Notes: generated from the sequence alone by a model not told the origin. A stretch of 53,482 nt of DNA from an uncultured Gammaproteobacteria bacterium (GCA_964434055.1 CAYSSY010000002.1:16076-69557), one strand, 5' to 3'; counted from the stretch's first letter, positions 31,475 to 40,269 are shown. A program made the numbers and translations.

Positions 31475-31512
31475 TAATTTAATTCTATCATTTAACTTAA
31501 AATTTAAAAAGC

Positions 31513-31764
31513 AAAAAAAACCGGTAGGCTGCCGATTCTTGTCACCGAGTCTTAGACCATCACTTTAAATGATAATATAAGTATTGGGCGACTATCCAAA
31601 GTTTAAAGGGATAATGTTTTGAAGAGAAGAGAGATTTTGATTTTTTTACCTGTTATCGATGAAGAAAACAGGATTTGTTTATCTCCTCTAAACTCGTTTA
31701 AACCGGCAGCCTACCGGCTTCTCCTATTTTTAGGCAGAGCGCGCTTGATTGTGGTCTTTGATCT
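31513..31764 (-). ncRNA. Candidate structured non-coding RNA, unit 1 (~250 nt)
   Basis: Consensus promoter upstream; 14-bp closing stem 31521-31534/31704-31717 followed by T8 on the minus strand; internal stems with G-U pairs on the minus strand; no ORF or known family recognised. Confidence 0.6.
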
Positions 31765-31770
31765 TACTTA

Positions 31771-31798
31771 ATTATACTATTTTTTTAAAAATTGTCAA
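31771..31798 (-). promoter_or_regulatory. Sigma70-type promoter for RNA unit 1
   Basis: TTGACA (31793-31798), 16-nt spacer, TATAAT (31771-31776). Confidence 0.75.
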
Positions 31799-31858
31799 TT
31801 CTATTAAGATTTTATACAATATTAATACTGACCAATCAATTAAAACGCTAAACCTTTA

Positions 31859-32289
31859 TTAAGGAAAAATTTGGAGGTTAATCCGAAGTAAATTTAAAAA
31901 AATTTAGCTTCGATCCCCCAAAGACGAATCTTTAGTAGTGTCACTAAAAATTGTGACACGGTATTAAAGAGTTTCGTTGGTTATAAACGCACGGGGTACA
32001 TTATTCCCAACCTTAAGTCGCTTTAAAAAAGCAACGATCGGGAACGAGCACTATTTAGTCAAGAACAGACCAGTAAGGACCGGTCAAGGTGTCTTGATTA
32101 AAAAACAAGCGCCTAACCTCCAAATTTTTCCTTAAAAACACAAAAAGCAGCTTAAAGAGAAATATCTAAAGCCGCTTTTTGTGTTAGGTGTTAAGACAAA
32201 TATCTGTTTTATCTCGACACCTAAAAATTTAAGGCAAATCTCTCTTCGTTGAAATAAATATTTAAATTATTTTTTCAAAATTAATTTAA
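31859..32289 (-). ncRNA. Candidate structured non-coding RNA, unit 2 (~430 nt)
   Basis: Perfect promoter upstream; two 5' hairpins (32137-32185, 32185-32223); perfect 22-bp stem 31859-31880/32114-32135 enclosing a multibranch domain; no ORF. Confidence 0.6.
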
Positions 32290-32295
32290 CTGCTT

Positions 32296-32324
32296 ATTAT
32301 ACTCCTGTTAAACAAACTTGTCAA
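32296..32324 (-). promoter_or_regulatory. Sigma70-type promoter for RNA unit 2
   Basis: TTGACA (32319-32324), 17-nt spacer, TATAAT (32296-32301). Confidence 0.8.
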
Positions 32325-32387
32325 GTCAAATGCTAATTAATTTTATTTATAATTAGCAAAAAAGAGCTAATTTATTTAAAAAAAGCC

Positions 32388-32416
32388 TTGACAAATCCTA
32401 AAAAAAGACTTATAAT
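32388..32416 (+). promoter_or_regulatory. Sigma70-type promoter for the DUF11 adhesin gene
   Basis: TTGACA (32388-32393), 17-nt spacer, TATAAT (32411-32416). Confidence 0.8.
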
Positions 32417-32545
32417 AGCAAGTTAATAATTAAACTTTAATATAGAGAAGAGAGTTTGAGAATTAACTGTAAATTTCAAAAACTCTCATCTTTAAAAAAA
32501 GGGAGTTTTATTTTTTATCAATTTTGATAACTTAAAATTAAATAT

Positions 32546-35509
32546 ATGAAAAAATCTCAAAAAATATTTATTATTCTAGCTTTATCTTTAATTATAGCTA
32601 TTGTGTCTGTAAAAGATGTTTCTGCAACATCCAATCTCTGCGAAATAAACGCAGCTATAAATTATTCAGGGACGGATTATGTGAGTGTCTGCGCTTTTCA
32701 TAGTACCTGTCCTCAAGAAAGACTTAACGCAGCAACTGTTAATGTCTCTACAGCTGGCAACTACGAAGTCGAGGCTTATGTTTGGTACAACAGTGGTGAT
32801 GAACAAAAAAATGAAAGTTATTTTTTAGTTGTCAAAAACGCTAATGGCAATAAATCTTATCCTCTGGACGCTAATGCCGGCAAATATAAAGTAATCGCTG
32901 ATGATCCGGGCGATCCCCATGGTGCCACTCGCAAATCAGGAGTCTTTTATTTTGACCAAGGCATAAATACTATTGAACTTCATCATTATATCCAAATAGC
33001 CAGTCAGTATCCGGCCTATGTTGTGGCAGGACCAATTACCGGGCCAGAAAGTGTAAAAATTAAATCTTTAAAAATTAAATGCACTGTAACAGACCCGTGC
33101 ATAAATAACCACAAACCGGTTGCTAATGCCGGTTCTGATCAAACTGTCTTTTTGGGTGATACCGTTCAATTTGACGGCTCGCTGTCTAGCGATGCTGACG
33201 GTGACCAATTAACTTTTAAGTGGTATCTTGATAACGGTGCGGTTTTAGACGGCGACAAAGCTAGTTATGCAAATTTTGCCTTAGGCACACGTTATGTTAC
33301 CCTAACAGTTAATGATCAATGTAACTTGGTCCAAGACTACGTTTTAGTGCACGTCAATCCGAAAACCATAAATATAGTCAGCGATAAATTAGTTTCCGAC
33401 AATGATGAGATAAAAACTCACAGTAATACTTCTCGGCCAGGTGAGGAAATAATCTACACTTTAAAGATTGAGAATAAAAATTCTACCGCTATAAAAAATA
33501 TTCGACTGGAAGATAATTATGATCAAAACTATCTGATTGTTTTAAATCCAGATGGCGGTAGTGATAATGGTGATAAAATCAGTTGGCAACTTGGCGATCT
33601 TTCTTCTGGCGCTGTTGTCGAAAAAACAGTCAGAATGAAAATAAAAGATTCGATTACCAACAACCTAAACTTTAAAAACTACCTCTCTTGTCAGACAGAT
33701 AACGCTGGTAGCTGCGCTAATGAGGTAACTACTCAAGTGGTCTTACCGAATGTACCAGCTGAACTTTTTATCAGCAAAAGCGTTTCTGATAACAATGAAT
33801 CAAAAGTGGCTAACAATGTTGCTGAACGTAATGAATTATTAACTTATTACTTACGAGCTGAGAATCGAAGCCAGACGACAATAAAAAATTTGAGAATTGA
33901 AGATGATTATGATCAAAATTATACTGAAGTTATCTCATGGGAAACTGGCGGTAGTCATAATGGTGACAAAATTTCCTGGTCATTAGGAGATTTAGCACCC
34001 TATAGTGCTGTGGAAAAAACTATGATTGTGCGCGTTAAAGGTGATGTTGCTGATGAAACAAATTTTAAAAACTTTTTGCGTTCATATGCTGATAATGTCA
34101 GCTCTCAACAAAAAGAAGTCACAACCAGAATTGATGTTGTTAATCAAGATCAAGTTACATTGGCTCTCGATAAGACTGTTTCCGATAGTGATGAAACCAA
34201 TAAAGACTATACAAGTTCTCACAAAAATGAAGTTTTAACTTACCGCTTAGATTATCATGTTAATGGTCGCGGAATTGCCCGCAATGTTGTCCTGCGTGAT
34301 GATTATGACCAGCGCTATGTGCGTATTATTTCCACTGACGGCGGTTCAAACAATGGTAATGAGATTGTTTGGCAGTTGGGCAACCTGGAATCGGGTTACC
34401 ACACCACCCGTTATGTGACTGTCCAGATTGTTAATGATTTTGACAATAGCCTGGAAATAAGTAATTGGGCTTATTTAAGAGCTGATAACGCACCGGCCGT
34501 TGAAGACCGGGTCAGAACAAACATTGAAGGCAATATAGACAATCAAAATGCTTATTTAAATATTGTCAAAACTGTTTTTGACAATGACGAAAACGAAGTT
34601 CATCGCAACTCGGCTAATGTTGGCGAACAGTTGACTTATAAAATAAAAATTTCTAATAACTCCACAATGGTTGCCCAAAACGTCATTTTAACTGATGATT
34701 ATGATCAGAATAAAATTGTCATTATTTCCTTTACTGGCAATGCTAATGACAACGGTGACCAACTATCTTGGTCGATTGGAAATCTCGATCCAGGCAGGAC
34801 CGCTGAACGGTTTATAACCGCCAAAGTGAAAGAAAATCTGAGCGGTAATCCAATAGTCATTAATAACGTGGCTAAAGTTACCGGCAGTAATATTCAGACC
34901 ATGTCAGACCAAACTGTCACTACTGTAATTGCCAAACCAGAACTAAACGTCACCAAGACTGTCAGTGACAATGATGAATTCGATAGCCATAATAATACTG
35001 CTGAACCATTAGAAACATTACTGTATACTATAACTGTTGAAAATACTGGTTTAACAACTTTAGAAAATGTCGTGGTGATTGATAATTATGATGAGCGCTA
35101 TCTTAAAATTATTTCGACTGATAGTGGTACTGACGACGGACATGTTATTCGTTGGCAAATCAACAGTTTAAAAGCAGGTGAACAAACTACTAGAGTTTTA
35201 ACCGTTCAATTGAATGACCAGGTTAGAAATGGCCTAAACGTTCTTAATCGTGTGACAGCTACTGCAAACAATGTTAACCCTGATAATGATAGTACTTTAA
35301 CTTCTGTTTATATTCCCGGTGTTACAATAACCGCAACCTCAACTACTCCATATGCCCCGCGGACTGGTGCTGGTTTAATTTTTCCGGCTTTAGGCGGCCT
35401 GTCAGCTGGTTCACTCGCTGGTTTATCTTCATTCGCTTATCTTAAGAAAAAGAAAAAAGCCAAAAAAAATGATAATATTACAACTTCAATCAGATTTAAC
35501 CCGGCCTAA
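32546..35509 (+). CDS. Large secreted surface protein: PKD domain, five DUF11-like repeats, C-terminal sortase-type sorting signal
   Basis: Signal peptide; PKD (PVANAGSDQTV..FDGSLSSD); five ~130-aa repeats K-x-V-S-D-x-D-E...D-D/N-Y-D; APRTG + hydrophobic segment + KKKKKAKK. Confidence 0.85.
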   Translation: MKKSQKIFIILALSLIIAIVSVKDVSATSNLCEINAAINYSGTDYVSVCAFHSTCPQERLNAATVNVSTAGNYEVEAYVWYNSGDEQKNESYFLVVKNANGNKSYPLDANAGKYKVIADDPGDPHGATRKSGVFYFDQGINTIELHHYIQIASQYPAYVVAGPITGPESVKIKSLKIKCTVTDPCINNHKPVANAGSDQTVFLGDTVQFDGSLSSDADGDQLTFKWYLDNGAVLDGDKASYANFALGTRYVTLTVNDQCNLVQDYVLVHVNPKTINIVSDKLVSDNDEIKTHSNTSRPGEEIIYTLKIENKNSTAIKNIRLEDNYDQNYLIVLNPDGGSDNGDKISWQLGDLSSGAVVEKTVRMKIKDSITNNLNFKNYLSCQTDNAGSCANEVTTQVVLPNVPAELFISKSVSDNNESKVANNVAERNELLTYYLRAENRSQTTIKNLRIEDDYDQNYTEVISWETGGSHNGDKISWSLGDLAPYSAVEKTMIVRVKGDVADETNFKNFLRSYADNVSSQQKEVTTRIDVVNQDQVTLALDKTVSDSDETNKDYTSSHKNEVLTYRLDYHVNGRGIARNVVLRDDYDQRYVRIISTDGGSNNGNEIVWQLGNLESGYHTTRYVTVQIVNDFDNSLEISNWAYLRADNAPAVEDRVRTNIEGNIDNQNAYLNIVKTVFDNDENEVHRNSANVGEQLTYKIKISNNSTMVAQNVILTDDYDQNKIVIISFTGNANDNGDQLSWSIGNLDPGRTAERFITAKVKENLSGNPIVINNVAKVTGSNIQTMSDQTVTTVIAKPELNVTKTVSDNDEFDSHNNTAEPLETLLYTITVENTGLTTLENVVVIDNYDERYLKIISTDSGTDDGHVIRWQINSLKAGEQTTRVLTVQLNDQVRNGLNVLNRVTATANNVNPDNDSTLTSVYIPGVTITATSTTPYAPRTGAGLIFPALGGLSAGSLAGLSSFAYLKKKKKAKKNDNITTSIRFNPA

Positions 35510-35530
35510 AATATTCGTTGATAAAGAAAT

Positions 35531-36361
35531 ATGAACGGTAATCCTTATAATACTAACCAACTTGATGTTAAAAAAAGCAGCAAAAGAGCAATTGTTTTAT
35601 CATTAATAACTTTTGCCATTGTTTCTTTTGGCGCTGGTGTGACCATCTTTGCCTTACAGCAAAAAAACATTCAAGACAATAAATTATTGGCACTAAATTA
35701 TAGTTCTCCCATTAGTGGCATGGTTCTGGGAGCAAAAACAAATGTTAATCAAACTGTAAAAATTGCCGTTTATTCAAAAGAACTTGATCCTGATCAGGAT
35801 GGTTTGAATAATAAAATGGAAGAAATTTTAGGAACTGACCCGAACAATCCTGATACTGACAAAGACGGCAAAAAAGATGGCTATGAAATGAATGTTGGCG
35901 ATGATCCAACATCATTGGGAAAAATAAATACTTCAATTAATATCCCAAAAATAAAAATAACCGCACCGGTTATTTGGTCAGCTTCAACCGACGAAGCCAG
36001 TATTCAAAAAGACCTGCAAAAGGGAGTTATCCATTATCCAGGAACTTCTATGCCTGGTCAAACTGGTAATTCATTTATAACTGGCCATTCTTCTGACTAC
36101 AGTTGGACCAAAGGAAATTACAAAAATATTTTTAGTAATCTCCATAAACTTAATGTGGGTGATTCGGTAAAAATTGAATATAATCTACACAACGGACGAC
36201 GCATCACTTATGAATACAAAATAATTTCAGAAGACATAGTAATGCCGAACGACAGCCGTTTATTTGAAAAAACCAATAAGAAAATCTTGACCTTGGTCAC
36301 TTGTTGGCCGCTCAACTCGAGCTGGAAACGATTAATGTTTAAAGCGGTGCTGGTGGAATAA
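35531..36361 (+). CDS. Sortase with N-terminal TM and DxDxDG calcium-binding repeats
   Basis: GVIHYPGT..PGQTGNSFITGHS (His), LTLVTCWP (Cys), KRLMFKA (Arg); DPDQDG and DTDKDG repeats. Confidence 0.9.
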   Translation: MNGNPYNTNQLDVKKSSKRAIVLSLITFAIVSFGAGVTIFALQQKNIQDNKLLALNYSSPISGMVLGAKTNVNQTVKIAVYSKELDPDQDGLNNKMEEILGTDPNNPDTDKDGKKDGYEMNVGDDPTSLGKINTSINIPKIKITAPVIWSASTDEASIQKDLQKGVIHYPGTSMPGQTGNSFITGHSSDYSWTKGNYKNIFSNLHKLNVGDSVKIEYNLHNGRRITYEYKIISEDIVMPNDSRLFEKTNKKILTLVTCWPLNSSWKRLMFKAVLVE

Positions 36362-36375
36362 AAAAAATAATTAAA

Positions 36376-36405
36376 AAAATACCCTACTAAAAAGTAGGGT
36401 ATTTT
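36376..36405. terminator. Bidirectional intrinsic terminator
   Basis: AAAATACCCTACT-aaaa-AGTAGGGTATTTT between the sortase and L,D-transpeptidase genes. Confidence 0.88.
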
Positions 36406-36415
36406 GATTAATCAA

Positions 36416-37813
36416 TTAATTACTAACGAAAACTGGCGTACCAACAACAACCCAATCATAAAGTTCTTCAGCAGCTACAAGTGATAATCTGACACAGCCG
36501 TGTGAAACACGCTGACCTAAATGATTAGCACCTTCATAAACAATTTTTTTACCATTTTTCCAATAAGGCAGACCGTGAATGCCGGCACCTCCCCAGGTAA
36601 AACCCAACCAGTGAGGCATATAAAGATTATATGCCCGGGAATAAGCAACCTCAATTTTATTTAAAATTTTAAATTCTCCAATTGGAGTCGGCATGCTTTT
36701 TTTACCACTGGAAACAATTTGCTCATTTATCAGATAACCATTCTGATAATAGCGCAATTTCTGTTCTGATATATCAACTGCTATATATTTCTCTATTTTT
36801 TTTTCAGCAGTCTTTATTCTCTCCTGAGCCACAACTAACTCTAACTTTCTGTCGCCGTCAATATCGCCAACAATAGTCTGCAAGCCACCTTGATAATCTT
36901 TTTCAAAAGGCTTAAGTTCCCGCACCACTTTTTTACTGCTCAAATTAACAAATAATAAAAGCGGCTCTGACAGTAAACCACCGGAAACAATTATTTCTTT
37001 ATCCTGACCATTGTTATAAAATGAAAAATTAATTTCTTTGGATTTAAATTGATCAAACGACAATTCCCAAATATTTCTGCCCGAATACTGGTAAGCCTGT
37101 ATAACCGGACGCCCTAATTTAAAACCACTAATAAATATTTCATTTTTTTTGTCAGAATCAAAATCAAAAATTTGAATTTGTTTTATTACTGTTAGCCCAT
37201 CAAGAGATAATTCTTGATTTAACTGTCCGAGCAAATTAAAAATTCTTATCTTGCTCGGTGCACTACGTTGCCAGACAATAATTTCCGGCTTATTATCATT
37301 ATCAACATCACCGGCAGTAACTCTGATCCCGGAAAGGTCTTTCTTGTCTCCACTAAAAAAACCGGGGTTAATTTTCATTTTCCCAAAACCATCTAAAATC
37401 CTAACATGCGGTCCGCCGCCCTCACCTGCCCCGACCACCAACTCGCTTTTCTTATCATTATCAAAATCAGCCGTTGTTAAACTGACTCCACCAAAAAAAT
37501 TCTCATTATAAACTAAATATTCATTAATCAGATTTCCATAACCATCAAAAATTTTTAACCAAGGCTGCCCGCCGGTACCGTTAGTCAAAACTATTTCCTG
37601 TTGTCCGTCACCGCCTAAATCGACTAATGAAAAATTAATCTGACGCGCTTTGTCACCAATATCAGCAACTTTAAAAATTCGTTCTGTTGTTAATTTCTCA
37701 TAATCTAAAACTTTTAACAGATATTGCTGACTACTATCTTGAGCAATAACACTGTCCGCACTGCTTAAAAAAAATAGAGAACTGACAATACTAATAAAAT
37801 AAAAATATTTCAT
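36416..37813 (-). CDS. L,D-transpeptidase (YkuD) with N-terminal FG-GAP/VCBS repeats
   Basis: Signal peptide; DxDxDGxxE repeats with GAGEGGGPHVRI; YIAVDISEQ, TPIGEF, GIHG, SHGCVRL. Confidence 0.9.
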   Translation of the reverse strand: MKYFYFISIVSSLFFLSSADSVIAQDSSQQYLLKVLDYEKLTTERIFKVADIGDKARQINFSLVDLGGDGQQEIVLTNGTGGQPWLKIFDGYGNLINEYLVYNENFFGGVSLTTADFDNDKKSELVVGAGEGGGPHVRILDGFGKMKINPGFFSGDKKDLSGIRVTAGDVDNDNKPEIIVWQRSAPSKIRIFNLLGQLNQELSLDGLTVIKQIQIFDFDSDKKNEIFISGFKLGRPVIQAYQYSGRNIWELSFDQFKSKEINFSFYNNGQDKEIIVSGGLLSEPLLLFVNLSSKKVVRELKPFEKDYQGGLQTIVGDIDGDRKLELVVAQERIKTAEKKIEKYIAVDISEQKLRYYQNGYLINEQIVSSGKKSMPTPIGEFKILNKIEVAYSRAYNLYMPHWLGFTWGGAGIHGLPYWKNGKKIVYEGANHLGQRVSHGCVRLSLVAAEELYDWVVVGTPVFVSN

Positions 37814-37905: not shown

Positions 37906-40269
37906 TTAATTAATTAACATCGGAATTTTTCTCAGATTACTGTTGGTGATTCCCAAACCCAAACGACGCATTAATTGGTAAGCATCTTCGGCAGTGCCCA
38001 GATAATAACGTTTCAAATTTACCGGACTGATATACCATGCTTCGCCCTTACCCTCAACTTGCAAAAGTATTCGTCCGGCTAATCTTTTTCTTAATCTTAA
38101 GTCACCAGAAAAATTTTCTGAGTCAGTAGGAATTTTTTGCAAATCAGAATTTTTAGCACCCAGACCGAACTTGCGCATAAGATTATAGGCATCCTGCGCG
38201 CGCCCTAAATAATAAGCTTTTCTAGTTGTCGGAGAAACATAGAACGCTTCACCCTTACCCTCAACAGCCAATAAAATTCTACCCAGTAATCGATTAACTA
38301 AATTATCATCGCAGTTTCTGCCGGAACCGACCGGATTATAACAACCATTGATTTCCAATAAATCATTATAACCATCAAGATCAGAGTCGCTTTTGTTTTT
38401 ATCGGTGCCATACAAATTTTCAAGAGAATCAGGTAAACCATCGCTATCGGTATCAGTATTAGCTACAGTGCCAACACTTGTTTGTGAATTAGACTGGGTG
38501 TCTTCCTGGTTTTGATTATTAGAATTTTCATCAACTGACGGGGAACTATAAACATAACTATATCCAGTATAATCACCGAGAATTTGATTATCGGTCCGTG
38601 TATAGTTATAAAGCTTAAATTCATCAATGGCTCCATGAGTAAAACCTCTTGCTAAGGTTGTATGATCATTTAAAAGACGAAAATTCGTACACATAATCGA
38701 ACCGGCATAAGAAGTTGTCGCACTCTTCACACCATTAACATAAAGATTGGCCTGACTCAATTCATTACTCCAGGTTAAAGCTAAATGTTTCCACTCAGAA
38801 TTTTTCCAAGCATCACTTGAGGTAGCAGTCTGAAAAACATAGTTTAAATTCTGGCCACCAATCAAGGCTTTAATTTTTTTCTGATTGTCACCCTGACTCT
38901 CATAATCATATTGAAGAGAAAAAAATCCATTATCTGTTTCCCAAAAATGTTGATCAGCACCTTTGATTTGATCAAACTTGAGCCACATTTCTAATGTGCC
39001 GTTGTTATTATCAAAATTACCACTACAACTATAATCCAGATATCCGGCTGAATTATTCAGTCTCAAAGCGGAAGTGGACACGCCATTTTCATAGCTCAGG
39101 GCATTGGTAATATAACTTGAGCTTGGTAAAATTTTGTCCTCACTTTCTAATTTTTTTTCAAATTTTAATTCAAATAATTTTTGTACCGGCGCAGAAGAAA
39201 TTATTTCAACCTCATTACCATTTATAAAACCAGACACCTTAGCGTAAACAGCGCTGCTTTTCCCTTGTAAAATTACATCACCTGAAGTCTCAATGCTAAA
39301 ATATGGCTTAGAACCAAGAGATACCTTGCTTAATTCATTGACATCCGCCTTTAAATAAAATTTATTTTCGGAACCAGCCGACAGCTCAACATTACTGAAA
39401 GTAAAAACTATATTACCAGATTCGACAGTTTGACTGGCTAACTGAGTACCAGATTCGTTGGTTATTTTAACTGTCGTCAAATTGTCGACACTCGAATTCT
39501 TTAGTTTAACTCTTAATTCTCTAAGATAGACATTTTCAGCATCATTCACTAGTAGGTTAAACATCAGAAAAGTTACATCTTTGGATAGAGGTGTTGCTTT
39601 TAAACCTAAAGGTGACAAGCTATTTTTTACTAAGCTAACTTTCGGATACTTTGCTGTCAGCCAAACACCATCAACTTTACTTGGGTTTGGTGTAACAGTA
39701 ACCGGATTGCCTGAATCTTGACCAGAAAAAACTGAACGATTTAAATCCAAGTCAAATTTAATTTTTAAACTGTCATCGACTGCAGAATCAACGTCAGCGA
39801 CTAAACTTAAACTTTTTGTTAACAATGGTCCAACTTGCCAGTTTAAATTTTGAAAATAAACACCATCAACCGAACTGCTAAAGGGTTGAGGCCCGGCGAT
39901 ATTGATTCCGTTTTCATTATCATAAAGATAATAATTCTTCAAACTACTACCATTCAAACTCGAGCTAGCGTCACGGCTAAACCAGATTGTGGTAAAACGC
40001 ACCATTTCCTGACTATTATTATTAAAAACAAAACGCTCTAAATAATTTCCACTAGAGTTCACTAAAATATTCTGAGCACTAGAACTTTGGCCAAGGTTTA
40101 TTGTCATCGGTATTTCTGCTTGAGCCAAAATAAATTGCCATGATGTTATGGAAAGTAATAAAAAAATTGCCAGCCAAAAGTAATAGCGAGCAATTTTGAA
40201 ACGCCTAAAACCTACTTTTAATGAATTTTTAAAATTATACTGCTTTTCAGGTGCAATAAAATTAGCCAT
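37906..40269 (-). CDS. Surface/S-layer-like protein: Ig-like region, LamG domain, DxDxDG repeats, duplicated C-terminal module
   Basis: N-terminal TM; LamG GTLEMW..WKHLALTW..LYVNG..IDEFKLY; DTDSDGLPD; GRILLxVEGKGEAxYxSP..YYLG twice. Confidence 0.75.
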   Translation of the reverse strand: MANFIAPEKQYNFKNSLKVGFRRFKIARYYFWLAIFLLLSITSWQFILAQAEIPMTINLGQSSSAQNILVNSSGNYLERFVFNNNSQEMVRFTTIWFSRDASSSLNGSSLKNYYLYDNENGINIAGPQPFSSSVDGVYFQNLNWQVGPLLTKSLSLVADVDSAVDDSLKIKFDLDLNRSVFSGQDSGNPVTVTPNPSKVDGVWLTAKYPKVSLVKNSLSPLGLKATPLSKDVTFLMFNLLVNDAENVYLRELRVKLKNSSVDNLTTVKITNESGTQLASQTVESGNIVFTFSNVELSAGSENKFYLKADVNELSKVSLGSKPYFSIETSGDVILQGKSSAVYAKVSGFINGNEVEIISSAPVQKLFELKFEKKLESEDKILPSSSYITNALSYENGVSTSALRLNNSAGYLDYSCSGNFDNNNGTLEMWLKFDQIKGADQHFWETDNGFFSLQYDYESQGDNQKKIKALIGGQNLNYVFQTATSSDAWKNSEWKHLALTWSNELSQANLYVNGVKSATTSYAGSIMCTNFRLLNDHTTLARGFTHGAIDEFKLYNYTRTDNQILGDYTGYSYVYSSPSVDENSNNQNQEDTQSNSQTSVGTVANTDTDSDGLPDSLENLYGTDKNKSDSDLDGYNDLLEINGCYNPVGSGRNCDDNLVNRLLGRILLAVEGKGEAFYVSPTTRKAYYLGRAQDAYNLMRKFGLGAKNSDLQKIPTDSENFSGDLRLRKRLAGRILLQVEGKGEAWYISPVNLKRYYLGTAEDAYQLMRRLGLGITNSNLRKIPMLIN

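What the first reader, a model, noticed from the sequence alone, without database searches (positions are those of the whole stretch)
32546..36361. Dedicated sortase-substrate pair with a non-canonical APRTG sorting signal
The 987-aa protein ends in APRTG (35354-35368), a Gly-rich hydrophobic segment and KKKKKAKK. That is the three-part layout of sortase substrates, with A in place of the L of LPxTG. The next gene, 21 nt downstream, is a sortase with intact His, Cys and Arg residues and unusual DxDxDG calcium-binding repeats before the catalytic domain. Sortase anchoring to peptidoglycan is established in monoderm bacteria. A cognate pair in a CPR-like organism suggests a covalently anchored adhesin relevant to host attachment.
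Basis: partly seen in the sequence, partly recalled or inferred. Interest (0 to 1): 0.7.

Follow-up and report, generated by a model that had tools for sequence, protein, structure and literature searches.

The report
Sortase and APRTG-tailed surface protein operon
A Patescibacteria (CPR) genome fragment carries a transcribed two-gene operon for a large repeat-rich surface protein and the sortase enzyme that most likely fastens it to the cell wall, using an Ala-Pro-Arg-Thr-Gly tag in place of the textbook Leu-Pro-x-Thr-Gly: a new variant of a well-known system, not a new kind of system.

Summary
ORF 32546-35509 encodes a 987-aa protein with a signal peptide, a PKD domain and five DUF11 repeats. 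It carries APRTG (35354-35368), a 25-residue hydrophobic segment and KKKKKAKK. A 276-aa sortase starts 21 nt downstream, with H186, C258, R267, an N-terminal membrane helix and two DxDxDG (TSP3-type) repeats.

The sortase passes the generic sortase models but no class A-F or GN model. It belongs to a large Patescibacteria (mostly Moraniibacteriota) family. Of 132 non-redundant related loci, 74 have an adjacent [L/V]PxTG protein, 14 an adjacent [A/S]PxTG protein and 44 have none. The motif type follows the sortase tree. The window's clade pairs DUF11-repeat proteins with AP(R/K)TG in 4 of 4 loci.

A perfect promoter, a terminator hairpin and metatranscriptome contigs that bridge the two genes support an operon. 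Peptidoglycan and lipid II genes lie in the window.

Cleavage, strict Ala specificity and any role in host attachment are untested. Sortases in CPR and (S/P)PxTG motifs in C. difficile were already known. In the literature searched, APxTG appears only as an engineered specificity. Verdict: real cognate pair, new variant of a known kind, moderate interest.

The parts
32388..32416 (+). Sigma-70-type promoter (TTGACA-17-TATAAT, 12 of 12 matches), 130 nt upstream of the substrate ATG
   Evidence: Metatranscriptome contigs begin at 32456 and 32469, just downstream, and there is essentially no RNA coverage at 32184-32404.
32546..35509 (+). Substrate gene: 987-aa secreted surface protein with a C-terminal cell-wall sorting signal
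   Evidence: ORF. Pfam finds PKD_4 and five DUF11 stretches. RNA contigs cover it almost continuously in three runs.
32546..32626 (+). Sec-type signal peptide (MKKSQK, a hydrophobic core, then VSA|TS)
   Evidence: Read directly from the translation. This is an inference from sequence; no predictor was run.
32627..33100 (+). N-terminal domain of about 160 residues with no detectable relatives; the presumed distal 'tip' domain
   Evidence: No Pfam or NCBIfam hit, no homolog and no PDB hit. The single-sequence AF2 model failed, with pLDDT 32.
33107..33331 (+). PKD domain (residues 188-262)
   Evidence: Pfam PKD_4 scores 47.5 bits. PDB collagenase PKD domains match at E = 1.7e-5.
33377..35350 (+). 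Five DUF11 repeats of about 130 residues, each opening with K(T/S)VSD(N/S)(D/N)E; the presumed Ig-like stalk
   Evidence: Pfam DUF11 scores 134 bits over 5 stretches, and TIGR01451 also matches. Repeat starts were located.
35354..35368 (+). APRTG pentapeptide; predicted sortase cleavage between T940 and G941
   Evidence: AP(R/K)TGxG is conserved in L007, L048 and L082.
35369..35443 (+). Hydrophobic, Gly-rich membrane-spanning segment of the sorting signal (residues 942-966)
   Evidence: Translation. It forms part of the TIGR01167 match.
35444..35467 (+). Basic stop-transfer patch KKKKKAKK (residues 967-974)
35468..35506 (+). Extra C-terminal extension NDNITTSIRFNPA, containing a T-x-I-R-F motif
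   Evidence: A similar T(I/S)I(I/R/T)F ending occurs in L003, L017, L052 and L114, with a variant in L007. Its function is unknown.
35531..36361 (+). Sortase gene (276 aa), 21 nt after the substrate gene
   Evidence: RNA contig 35343-35682 bridges the two genes.
35591..35659 (+). N-terminal membrane anchor of the sortase (about residues 21-43), preceded by the basic KKSSKR segment
   Evidence: Sequence. AF2 predicts a helix at 18-55.
35786..35902 (+). Two thrombospondin-type-3-like DxDxDG repeats (D86-G91 and D108-G113) between the anchor and the catalytic domain
   Evidence: Pfam TSP3_bac scores 19.3 bits, below threshold. The repeats are family-wide. AF2 pLDDT is 73-95 here.
35924..36358 (+). 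Sortase catalytic beta-barrel, with H186 (36086-36088), C258 (36302-36304) and R267 (36329-36331)
   Evidence: Pfam match over residues 136-275. AF2 pLDDT is mostly above 90. The top Foldseek hits are all sortases.
36376..36405 (.). Symmetric 13-bp hairpin flanked by A and T runs; a bidirectional terminator shared with the convergent L,D-transpeptidase gene
   Evidence: RNA coverage stops before it, at about 36190.

Best explanation
The region is a two-gene operon: promoter 32388-32416, substrate gene, sortase gene, terminator 36376-36405.

The 987-aa protein is exported through Sec. Its C-terminal hydrophobic segment and basic patch hold it in the membrane. The sortase is itself membrane-anchored, with its catalytic domain facing outward on a short TSP3-type linker that probably binds calcium.

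The sortase recognises A-P-R-T-G(-x-G) and cleaves between Thr940 and Gly941. Cys258 forms a thioacyl intermediate with the substrate. The intermediate is resolved by the amine of a lipid II or peptidoglycan stem peptide. The result is a PKD and 5xDUF11 stalk, with an orphan N-terminal domain at its tip, fixed covalently to the cell wall.

The enzyme belongs to a Patescibacteria-specific sortase family outside classes A-F. In this family each enzyme usually sits beside its own substrate, and the first residue of the pentapeptide (L, V, A or S) changes along with the sortase lineage.

Shown here: gene anatomy, family membership, catalytic residues, fold, conserved pairing, motif conservation and co-transcription. 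Inferred: the cleavage site, the peptidoglycan acceptor, calcium binding, and how strongly the enzyme prefers Ala over Leu.
For: - Anatomy and motif.
- Sortase domain above the curated cut-offs, triad invariant, confident AF2 model, and sortase fold matches with Foldseek E down to 6e-12.
- The isolated tail passes the TIGR01167 LPXTG_anchor cut-off.
- Only one sortase and only one sorting-signal tail in 53 kb, and they are adjacent.
- Of 132 non-redundant related loci, 88 carry an adjacent xPxTG protein (74 [L/V]PxTG, 14 [A/S]PxTG).
- The window's clade (WIN, L007, L048, L082) always pairs DUF11-repeat homologs ending in AP(R/K)TGxG.
- The motif class is phylogenetically coherent. It needs 4 Fitch steps, against a mean of 13.65 and a minimum of 10 in 2000 label permutations.
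- Operon signals: a 12/12 promoter, no terminator between the genes, and a hairpin after the sortase. RNA contigs from three metatranscriptomes start at 32456/32469 and cover the substrate gene. One spans 35343-35682. None cover murJ or the L,D-transpeptidase (YkuD) gene, so DNA carry-over is unlikely.
- Peptidoglycan and lipid II machinery in the window: MurJ, two FtsW/RodA (the second identified only by its conserved SEDS motif), MurD, MraY and a YkuD L,D-transpeptidase.
Against: - There is no biochemical evidence that APRTG is cleaved, or that peptidoglycan is the acceptor.
- The closest sortase homolog (69% identity, L161) has no substrate gene immediately upstream. Pairing is therefore not universal even among near relatives, and 44 of 132 loci lack an adjacent substrate.
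- Position 1 can switch between closely related sortases. L123 (LPRTG) is 61% identical to SPRTG-paired enzymes. The Ala may therefore reflect tolerance, not dedicated specificity.
- The trees are neighbour-joining only.
- The rest of this genome was not available, so other substrates could not be searched for.
Confidence: 0.75

Rival explanations
1. Relaxed rather than dedicated specificity. Sortases of this family recognise x-P-x-T-G-x-G and tolerate any small or aliphatic residue (L, V, A, S) at position 1. On this view APRTG is neutral drift within a permissive signal. The enzyme would process LPRTG equally well, so the 'non-canonical' motif carries no functional meaning.
For: V replaces L in 5 of 91 distinct tails within otherwise L-type clades. 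The L123/L125 sortase is 61% identical to SPRTG-paired sortases and shares their residues at H-2, C-2 and R+2, yet its adjacent DUF11 homolog carries LPRTG. P, T and G are far more conserved than position 1.
Against: The character needs only 4 changes on the tree, against at least 10 in all 2000 permutations. L is kept in 72 of 77 tails in the L/V group. A is kept in 4 of 4 loci of the window's clade, although the sortases there are only about 45-49% identical. Two alignment columns (147 and C-2 = 256) differ from the L-type consensus in every non-L clade.
Confidence: 0.3
2. Pilus-type (class C-like) sortase. The enzyme would polymerise the DUF11 protein, or join it to another subunit through a lysine isopeptide bond, and would not anchor it to peptidoglycan.
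For: The best sequence and fold matches in the PDB include many class C pilin sortases. The class D and class C NCBIfam models give the highest, though sub-threshold, scores.
Against: The class C model scores 65 bits against a cut-off of 160. Class A, D and E structures match about as well. There is one substrate gene, with no pilin cluster or second subunit in the operon. The DP(T/S) stretch before the catalytic domain belongs to the TSP3 repeat consensus and is not a class C lid. A YPKN-type pilin motif was not seen on reading the sequence; this is my own reading, not a formal test.
Confidence: 0.07
3. The tail is only a membrane anchor. APRTG is not processed, the protein stays anchored by its C-terminal helix, and the sortase serves other substrates encoded elsewhere.
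For: The extra 13-residue cytoplasmic extension is atypical for sorting signals. 44 of 132 family members clearly act on non-adjacent substrates.
Against: AP(R/K)TGxG is conserved at the same position in four divergent DUF11 homologs whose flanking sequence is not conserved. The isolated tail passes the LPXTG_anchor model. The genes are co-transcribed with 21-nt spacing.
Confidence: 0.07
4. A different acceptor. The sortase, held on a TSP3 stalk, would ligate the protein to an S-layer or other surface protein, or even to the host cell's wall, and not to the bacterium's own lipid II.
For: The stalk of TSP3 repeats (1 to about 8 copies among homologs) would place the active site away from the membrane. 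Cultivated Patescibacteria are episymbionts (PMC11623550 abstract).
Against: There is no direct evidence. The window's enzyme has the shortest stalk in the family. Lipid II synthesis and flipping genes are present. Every characterised anchoring sortase uses lipid II or peptidoglycan; this last point rests on established knowledge, not on a test made here.
Confidence: 0.04

Closest known systems
Housekeeping and anchoring sortases of monoderm bacteria (classes A, D, E) with LPXTG-type cell-wall sorting signals
   Same: Same fold and His-Cys-Arg triad. The enzyme has an N-terminal membrane anchor. The substrate has a tripartite signal (pentapeptide, hydrophobic segment, basic tail), and that tail passes TIGR01167.
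   Different: No class-specific NCBIfam model is reached (54-66 bits against cut-offs of 140-166). PDB identities are only 20-31%. There is a TSP3 repeat linker, Ala in place of Leu at position 1, and 13 extra residues after the basic patch.
Clostridioides difficile SrtB, which recognises (S/P)PxTG
   Same: A naturally non-Leu first residue with P, T and G retained. The S-type variants of the present family (SPKTG, SPQTG, SPRTG, SPDTG) have the same form (PMC4155245, PMC5118464).
   Different: The C. difficile enzyme is a class B sortase in a Firmicute and serves several dispersed substrates. No class B model was among the NCBIfam hits for the window's enzyme, and that enzyme is paired with one adjacent gene. 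Ala at position 1 is not among the C. difficile motifs named in the titles and abstracts seen.
Class GN ('marine') sortase, TIGR03784, with a single dedicated adjacent target
   Same: A dedicated one-enzyme, one-adjacent-substrate arrangement outside the classical Gram-positive phyla. The arrangement of that system is from my own knowledge of the NCBIfam family.
   Different: TIGR03784 scores 37.7 bits against a cut-off of 158. The lineage, the substrate family and the motif all differ.
Engineered S. aureus SrtA variants F40 and A1-22 (APxTG specificity)
   Same: They accept APxTG, including the APATG of histone H3 (PMC8248031). The family described here includes natural substrates ending in APRTG, APKTG and APATG.
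   Different: Those are laboratory mutants of the beta6/beta7 loop with reduced activity. The enzymes here are natural, only about 21-26% identical to SrtA structures, and their activity is untested.
CPR sortase family fam000526 (Meheust et al. 2019)
   Same: That study reports a sortase family in more than half of CPR genomes (PMC6744442). The window's enzyme is a CPR sortase of this general kind.
   Different: In the passages read, the paper does not describe sorting motifs, adjacent substrates or the TSP3 linker. Whether fam000526 is this exact family was not tested.

Membership tests
Sortase superfamily (Pfam PF04203 / TIGR01076) | Profile HMM score above the curated cut-off | tested here: met
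   PF04203 scores 88.5 bits against 26.6. TIGR01076 scores 63.9 against 39.35.
Sortase superfamily (Pfam PF04203 / TIGR01076) | Catalytic His, Cys (TLxTC) and Arg | tested here: met
   H186 (ITGHSS), C258 (LTLVTC) and R267. H and R are invariant and C is present in at least 90% of 22 aligned homologs.
Sortase superfamily (Pfam PF04203 / TIGR01076) | Eight-stranded beta-barrel fold | tested here: met
   In the AF2 model most of the catalytic domain has pLDDT above 90. All 50 top Foldseek PDB hits are sortases, with E down to 6e-12.
Sortase superfamily (Pfam PF04203 / TIGR01076) | Transpeptidase activity on a sorting signal | not testable with these tools
   Needs enzyme assays.
Sortase classes A-F and GN (NCBIfam class models) | Class-specific HMM above its cut-off | tested here: not met
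   Scores against cut-offs: SrtD-LPxTATN 66.4/140, class C 65.1/160, class D 61.8/165, class E 53.9/160, class F 37.2/166, class GN 37.7/158. No class A or class B model was listed.
Class C (pilin) sortases | Lid with a DP(F/W/Y) motif over the active site, and a pilin gene cluster | tested here: inconclusive
   No pilin cluster is present. The DPT/DPS before the catalytic domain is part of the TSP3 consensus. Model coordinates could not be inspected to check for occlusion of the active site.
LPXTG cell-wall sorting signal (TIGR01167) | Profile score above the cut-off | tested here: met
   The isolated 71-residue tail scores 19.3 bits against 15.9, matching profile positions 3-34, which leaves out the first two profile positions. 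The model was not reported in the full-length scan.
LPXTG cell-wall sorting signal (TIGR01167) | Leu at the first position of the pentapeptide | tested here: not met
   Ala937. Ala is conserved in L007, L048 and L082.
LPXTG cell-wall sorting signal (TIGR01167) | A hydrophobic segment followed by a basic tail at the extreme C-terminus | tested here: met
   25 uncharged residues followed by KKKKKAKK. However, 13 further residues follow.
Patescibacteria TSP3-linker sortase family (defined here from 132 loci) | Membrane anchor, TSP3 repeats, and a catalytic domain with the GHSS and TCWP signatures | tested here: met
   Alignment A1. 331 GTDB-species loci and 406 metagenome loci encode relatives.
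Patescibacteria TSP3-linker sortase family (defined here from 132 loci) | Adjacent same-strand gene ending in xPxTG(x)G + hydrophobic segment + basic tail | tested here: met
   88 of 132 loci, including the window.

The most novel reading that the evidence does not exclude
The family would be a natural 'specificity series' of sortases. Lineages would have retuned the first position of the recognition motif from Leu to Ala or Ser through a few changes lining the substrate groove. The candidates are residue 147 and the residue two before the catalytic Cys: Ser in LPxTG-paired enzymes, and Val, Thr or Ala in [A/S]PxTG-paired ones. The window's enzyme would then be a genuinely APxTG-selective sortase, orthogonal to LPxTG enzymes. 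Its relatives paired with APATG tails (L062, L066, L076) would be natural counterparts of the engineered sortases used for traceless ligation at the APATG site of histone H3.
Probability: 0.3. Interest if true: 0.55.

Novelty: new variant of a known kind. Interest (0 to 1): 0.4.

Why it matters
It gives a concrete, expressed example of how an uncultivated Patescibacterium fixes a large surface protein to its wall. This is relevant to the poorly understood cell envelopes of these bacteria and to their contacts with other cells.

The comparative set is the more useful result: 88 sortase-substrate pairs in which the first motif residue tracks the enzyme lineage. It is a ready-made natural experiment on sortase specificity. 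It also points to possible natural APxTG- and SPxTG-accepting enzymes for orthogonal protein ligation. In the searched literature, APxTG specificity is reported only for engineered, low-activity SrtA mutants.

It does not change the known picture of sortase biology.

Tried and rejected
- A whole-substrate homolog search was swamped by multi-PKD proteins. Only the self hit covered the full length.
- A full-HMMER search with the last DUF11 repeat plus the tail was swamped by giant DUF11 proteins. Their tails carry LPxTG, LAxTG, NPxTG, TPxTG and VPKTN, but none carries APxTG. This shows that position-1 variants are common in DUF11 proteins, but it says nothing about close homologs.
- A search with the N-terminal 190 residues found nothing. 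The single-sequence AF2 model of residues 28-270 was unusable, with pLDDT 32, so the tip domain stays unassigned.
- The closest sortase relative, P0001 (69% identity), sits on a 1.97-kb contig. It has no ORF tail upstream, and its downstream gene is truncated. That locus is uninformative about motif conservation at short evolutionary distance.
- The gene upstream of P0002 (a CBM9 protein) has no sorting signal.
- I looked for a riboswitch or other known RNA in the 1-kb gap upstream, by analogy with c-di-GMP control of sortase substrates in C. difficile. No Rfam family matched.
- A weak blastn match of the gap's structured element to L013 turned out to be chance.
- Alignment columns that separate L-type from A/S-type sortases are confounded by phylogeny. 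Only columns 147 and 256 differ in every non-L clade. I treat them as candidates, not findings.


Full report
**1. The observation**

ORF 32546-35509 (+) encodes 987 residues.
- It opens with a Sec-type signal peptide (MKKSQK, a hydrophobic core, then VSA|TS).
- A stretch of about 160 residues follows that matches no family.
- Next come a PKD domain (residues 188-262) and five DUF11 repeats of about 130 residues.
- APRTG occupies residues 937-941, encoded at 35354-35368 exactly as reported.
- It is followed by 25 uncharged, Gly-rich residues and then KKKKKAKK.

The next ORF, 35531-36361, begins 21 nt after the stop codon and encodes a 276-residue sortase.
- Pfam PF04203 scores 88.5 bits and TIGR01076 scores 63.9 bits, both above their cut-offs.
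- The catalytic residues are H186, C258 and R267.
- An N-terminal hydrophobic helix follows a basic segment.
- Two DxDxDG units lie at residues 86-91 and 108-113.

A six-frame scan of the whole window found no other genuine xPxTG + hydrophobic + basic tail. An HMM built from the family found no other sortase. The isolated tail passes the NCBIfam LPXTG_anchor model at 19.3 bits against a cut-off of 15.9, aligned from the Pro onwards.

**2. What the sortase is**

No class-specific NCBIfam model (C, D, E, F, GN or SrtD-LPxTATN) comes near its cut-off, and no class A or B model was listed. The nearest solved structures are class C, D and E sortases at E of about 1e-9 by sequence. An AF2 model built on 22 homologs is confident over the catalytic barrel. 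It matches class A, C, D and E sortase structures about equally well, at 20-31% identity.

Homologs are almost all from Patescibacteria, mostly labelled Moraniibacteriota (Moranbacteria). Most carry PF18884 TSP3 repeats between the anchor and the catalytic domain. The enzyme is therefore a member of the sortase superfamily, in a CPR-specific family outside the curated classes. The 'unusual' DxDxDG repeats are the family norm. Among the homologs aligned, the window's enzyme has the shortest linker.

**3. Is it a cognate pair?**

I fetched 160 related loci from GTDB species representatives and from metagenomes. For each, I looked for neighbouring genes that end in a tripartite signal.

Among 132 non-redundant sortases:

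| Adjacent same-strand protein | Loci | Typical form |
|---|---|---|
| [L/V]PxTG | 74 | Protein of 160-250 residues ending in LPATG(S/A)G |
| [A/S]PxTG | 14 | Larger multidomain protein |
| None adjacent | 44 | - |

On a neighbour-joining tree, the first residue of the motif follows the sortase lineage. The three-state character (L/V, A, S) needs 4 Fitch steps. In 2000 label permutations the mean was 13.65 steps and the minimum was 10.

The window's enzyme groups with L007, L048 and L082. Their adjacent proteins end in APRTGFG, APKTGAG and APKTGRG. All are DUF11-repeat proteins homologous to the window's substrate. In L082 the substrate gene lies downstream of the sortase. Sequence flanking the motif is not conserved, but A-P-(R/K)-T-G-x-G is.

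The other non-Leu groups are:
- SPRTG with DUF11 proteins: L005, L026, L109.
- SP(Q/D/K)TG with SdrD_B + DUF4215 proteins: L003, L017, L052, L114.
- APATG with SdrD_B + DUF4215 proteins: L062, L066, L076.

**4. Limits on 'dedicated specificity'**

- The L123/L125 sortase is 61% identical to the SPRTG-paired enzymes. It shares their residues two before His, two before Cys and two after Arg. Yet its adjacent DUF11 homolog ends in LPRTG.
- V replaces L sporadically.
- The closest relative of the window's sortase (69% identity) has no substrate gene directly upstream.

The data therefore show that Ala is accepted and conserved in this lineage. They do not show that Leu is rejected.

Two alignment columns differ from the L-type consensus in all four non-Leu lineages:
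- Residue 147 is Met in 70 of 74 L-type enzymes and Ile or Val in the others.
- Residue 256, two before the catalytic Cys, is Ser in 63 of 74 L-type enzymes and Val, Thr or Ala in the others.

From memory of S. aureus SrtA-substrate structures, the equivalent strand positions line the groove that holds the Leu-Pro part of the signal. That would make a bulkier residue opposite a smaller Ala or Ser plausible. This is an inference and is confounded by phylogeny.

**5. Expression and context**

- A perfect TTGACA-17-TATAAT promoter lies at 32388-32416.
- No terminator-like site separates the two genes.
- A symmetric 13-bp hairpin at 36376-36405 follows the sortase gene and faces the convergent L,D-transpeptidase gene.
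- Three metatranscriptomes from anaerobic digesters contain contigs at 99% or higher identity. These begin at 32456 and 32469 and cover the substrate gene almost continuously.
- In one run a contig spans 35343-35682, across the gene junction, and coverage continues to 36190.
- The same runs give nothing on murJ or on the L,D-transpeptidase gene.
- Elsewhere in the window the RNA coverage is patchy. Depth over the substrate gene is similar to that over ribosomal protein S9.
- Contig depth is a crude measure, but DNA contamination would not give this pattern.

The window also encodes MurJ, MraY, MurD, two FtsW/RodA paralogs (one confirmed by Pfam, the other recognised only by its SEDS motif) and a YkuD-type L,D-transpeptidase. 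The usual acceptor for sortase, lipid II or peptidoglycan, is therefore made by this organism.

**6. Mechanism**

The best-supported reading is classical sortase-mediated cell-wall anchoring of one dedicated, co-transcribed surface protein.
- Cleavage would occur between T940 and G941.
- The intermediate would be a C258 thioester.
- Transfer would be to a stem-peptide amine.

The PKD + DUF11 array would form a stalk that presents the orphan N-terminal domain. The claim that this protein is an adhesin for host attachment is reasonable for an episymbiotic lineage. Nothing I could compute supports it: there is no homolog, no domain match and no usable model for the tip domain.

**7. Comparison with what is known**

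- A sortase family in more than half of CPR genomes has been reported (PMC6744442).
- Natural sorting signals without Leu at position 1 are known. One example is (S/P)PxTG for C. difficile SrtB.
- NCBIfam curates NPXTG and LAVTG variants.
- Distant DUF11 proteins carry NPxTG, TPxTG, LAxTG and VPKTN tails.
- In the searchable literature, APxTG, APKTG and APATG appear only as the specificity of engineered SrtA mutants (F40, A1-22). These are used for traceless ligation at the APATG of histone H3.

I found no description of the TSP3-linker sortase family, of its adjacent substrates, or of natural APxTG signals. That is absence from the library searched, not proof that no such description exists.

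**8. Verdict**

The finding is real and the core interpretation stands. It is a new variant of a well-known system, and not a new kind of system. Its value lies mainly in the comparative series of sortase-motif pairs and in the possible use of natural APxTG-accepting enzymes. Interest is moderate (0.4).

Noticed in passing
window 31859-32135 (within the 1.07-kb ORF-free gap 31475-32545): A strongly structured element of about 275 nt, closed by a helix of about 22 bp (ggaaaaatttggaggtta ... taacctccaaatttttcc). The MFE z-score is -11.1 on the minus strand and -8.6 on the plus strand. It has no Rfam, tRNA or tmRNA match. Perfect 12/12 promoters on the minus strand flank it at 32324-32296 and 31798-31771. 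Metatranscriptome contigs cover it (X4 31871-32073, and X3 depth 2.3 at 31963-32183). It may be an undescribed small RNA.
   Followed up: partly
window 35468-35506; also the tails of L003, L017, L052, L114 and L007: After the basic patch of the sorting signal, several [A/S]PxTG substrates carry an extra short ending with a shared T-(I/S)-I-(I/R/T)-F motif: TSIRF, TIISF, TIIRF, SVIRF and TIITF. L007 has the variant TIPTSF. The small LPATG proteins lack it. This conserved cytoplasmic add-on has no known function.
   Followed up: partly
L062:4220-5368, L066:4177-5403, L076:4211-5371: Three SdrD_B + DUF4215 proteins beside one sortase subclade end in APATG(PG). This is the same pentapeptide as histone H3 residues 29-33, for which SrtA had to be engineered.
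   Followed up: no
L123:4845-6467 and L125:3079-4701: A 540-aa PKD/DUF11 homolog of the window's substrate ends in LPRTG. Its adjacent sortase is 61% identical to SPRTG-paired sortases. This is a recent L-to-S or S-to-L switch within one sortase lineage.
   Followed up: partly
Most of L009-L160, for example L058:4793-5937 and L040:4803-5933: The commonest partner of this sortase family is a small protein of 160-250 residues with no Pfam domain. It has a Lys/His-rich stretch just before LPATG(S/A)G. It is sometimes duplicated in tandem, and some genomes have two sortase paralogs, each with its own partner (L035/L044, L074/L077). Its function is unknown.
   Followed up: no
window 36416-37813 (-) and 37906-40269 (-): Two further envelope proteins lie downstream of the operon. 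One is an L,D-transpeptidase (YkuD) fused to FG-GAP repeats. The other is a 787-aa LamG-domain protein that also carries TSP3-type DxDxDG repeats and two C-terminal copies of a motif of about 50 residues (RILLxVEGKGEAxYxSP...YYLG). Together with the operon they form a small cell-surface gene cluster.
   Followed up: no
P0039 (Candidatus Doudnabacteria), alignment A1 columns around window residue 258: This sortase homolog has Ser in place of the catalytic Cys (LTLQTSYP). It may be an inactive or mechanistically altered paralog.
   Followed up: no
Record titles of L002, L004, L007, L009, L011, L020, L022, L048, L067 and others: Many contigs carrying this Patescibacteria-type sortase and its neighbourhood are titled Bdellovibrionales, Micavibrio, Gammaproteobacteria or even Bathyarchaeia in the public records. 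The taxon labels of these assembled genomes are probably wrong.
   Followed up: no
window 11017-11450 (-): Bacterial class A RNase P RNA, at 149 bits.
   Followed up: no
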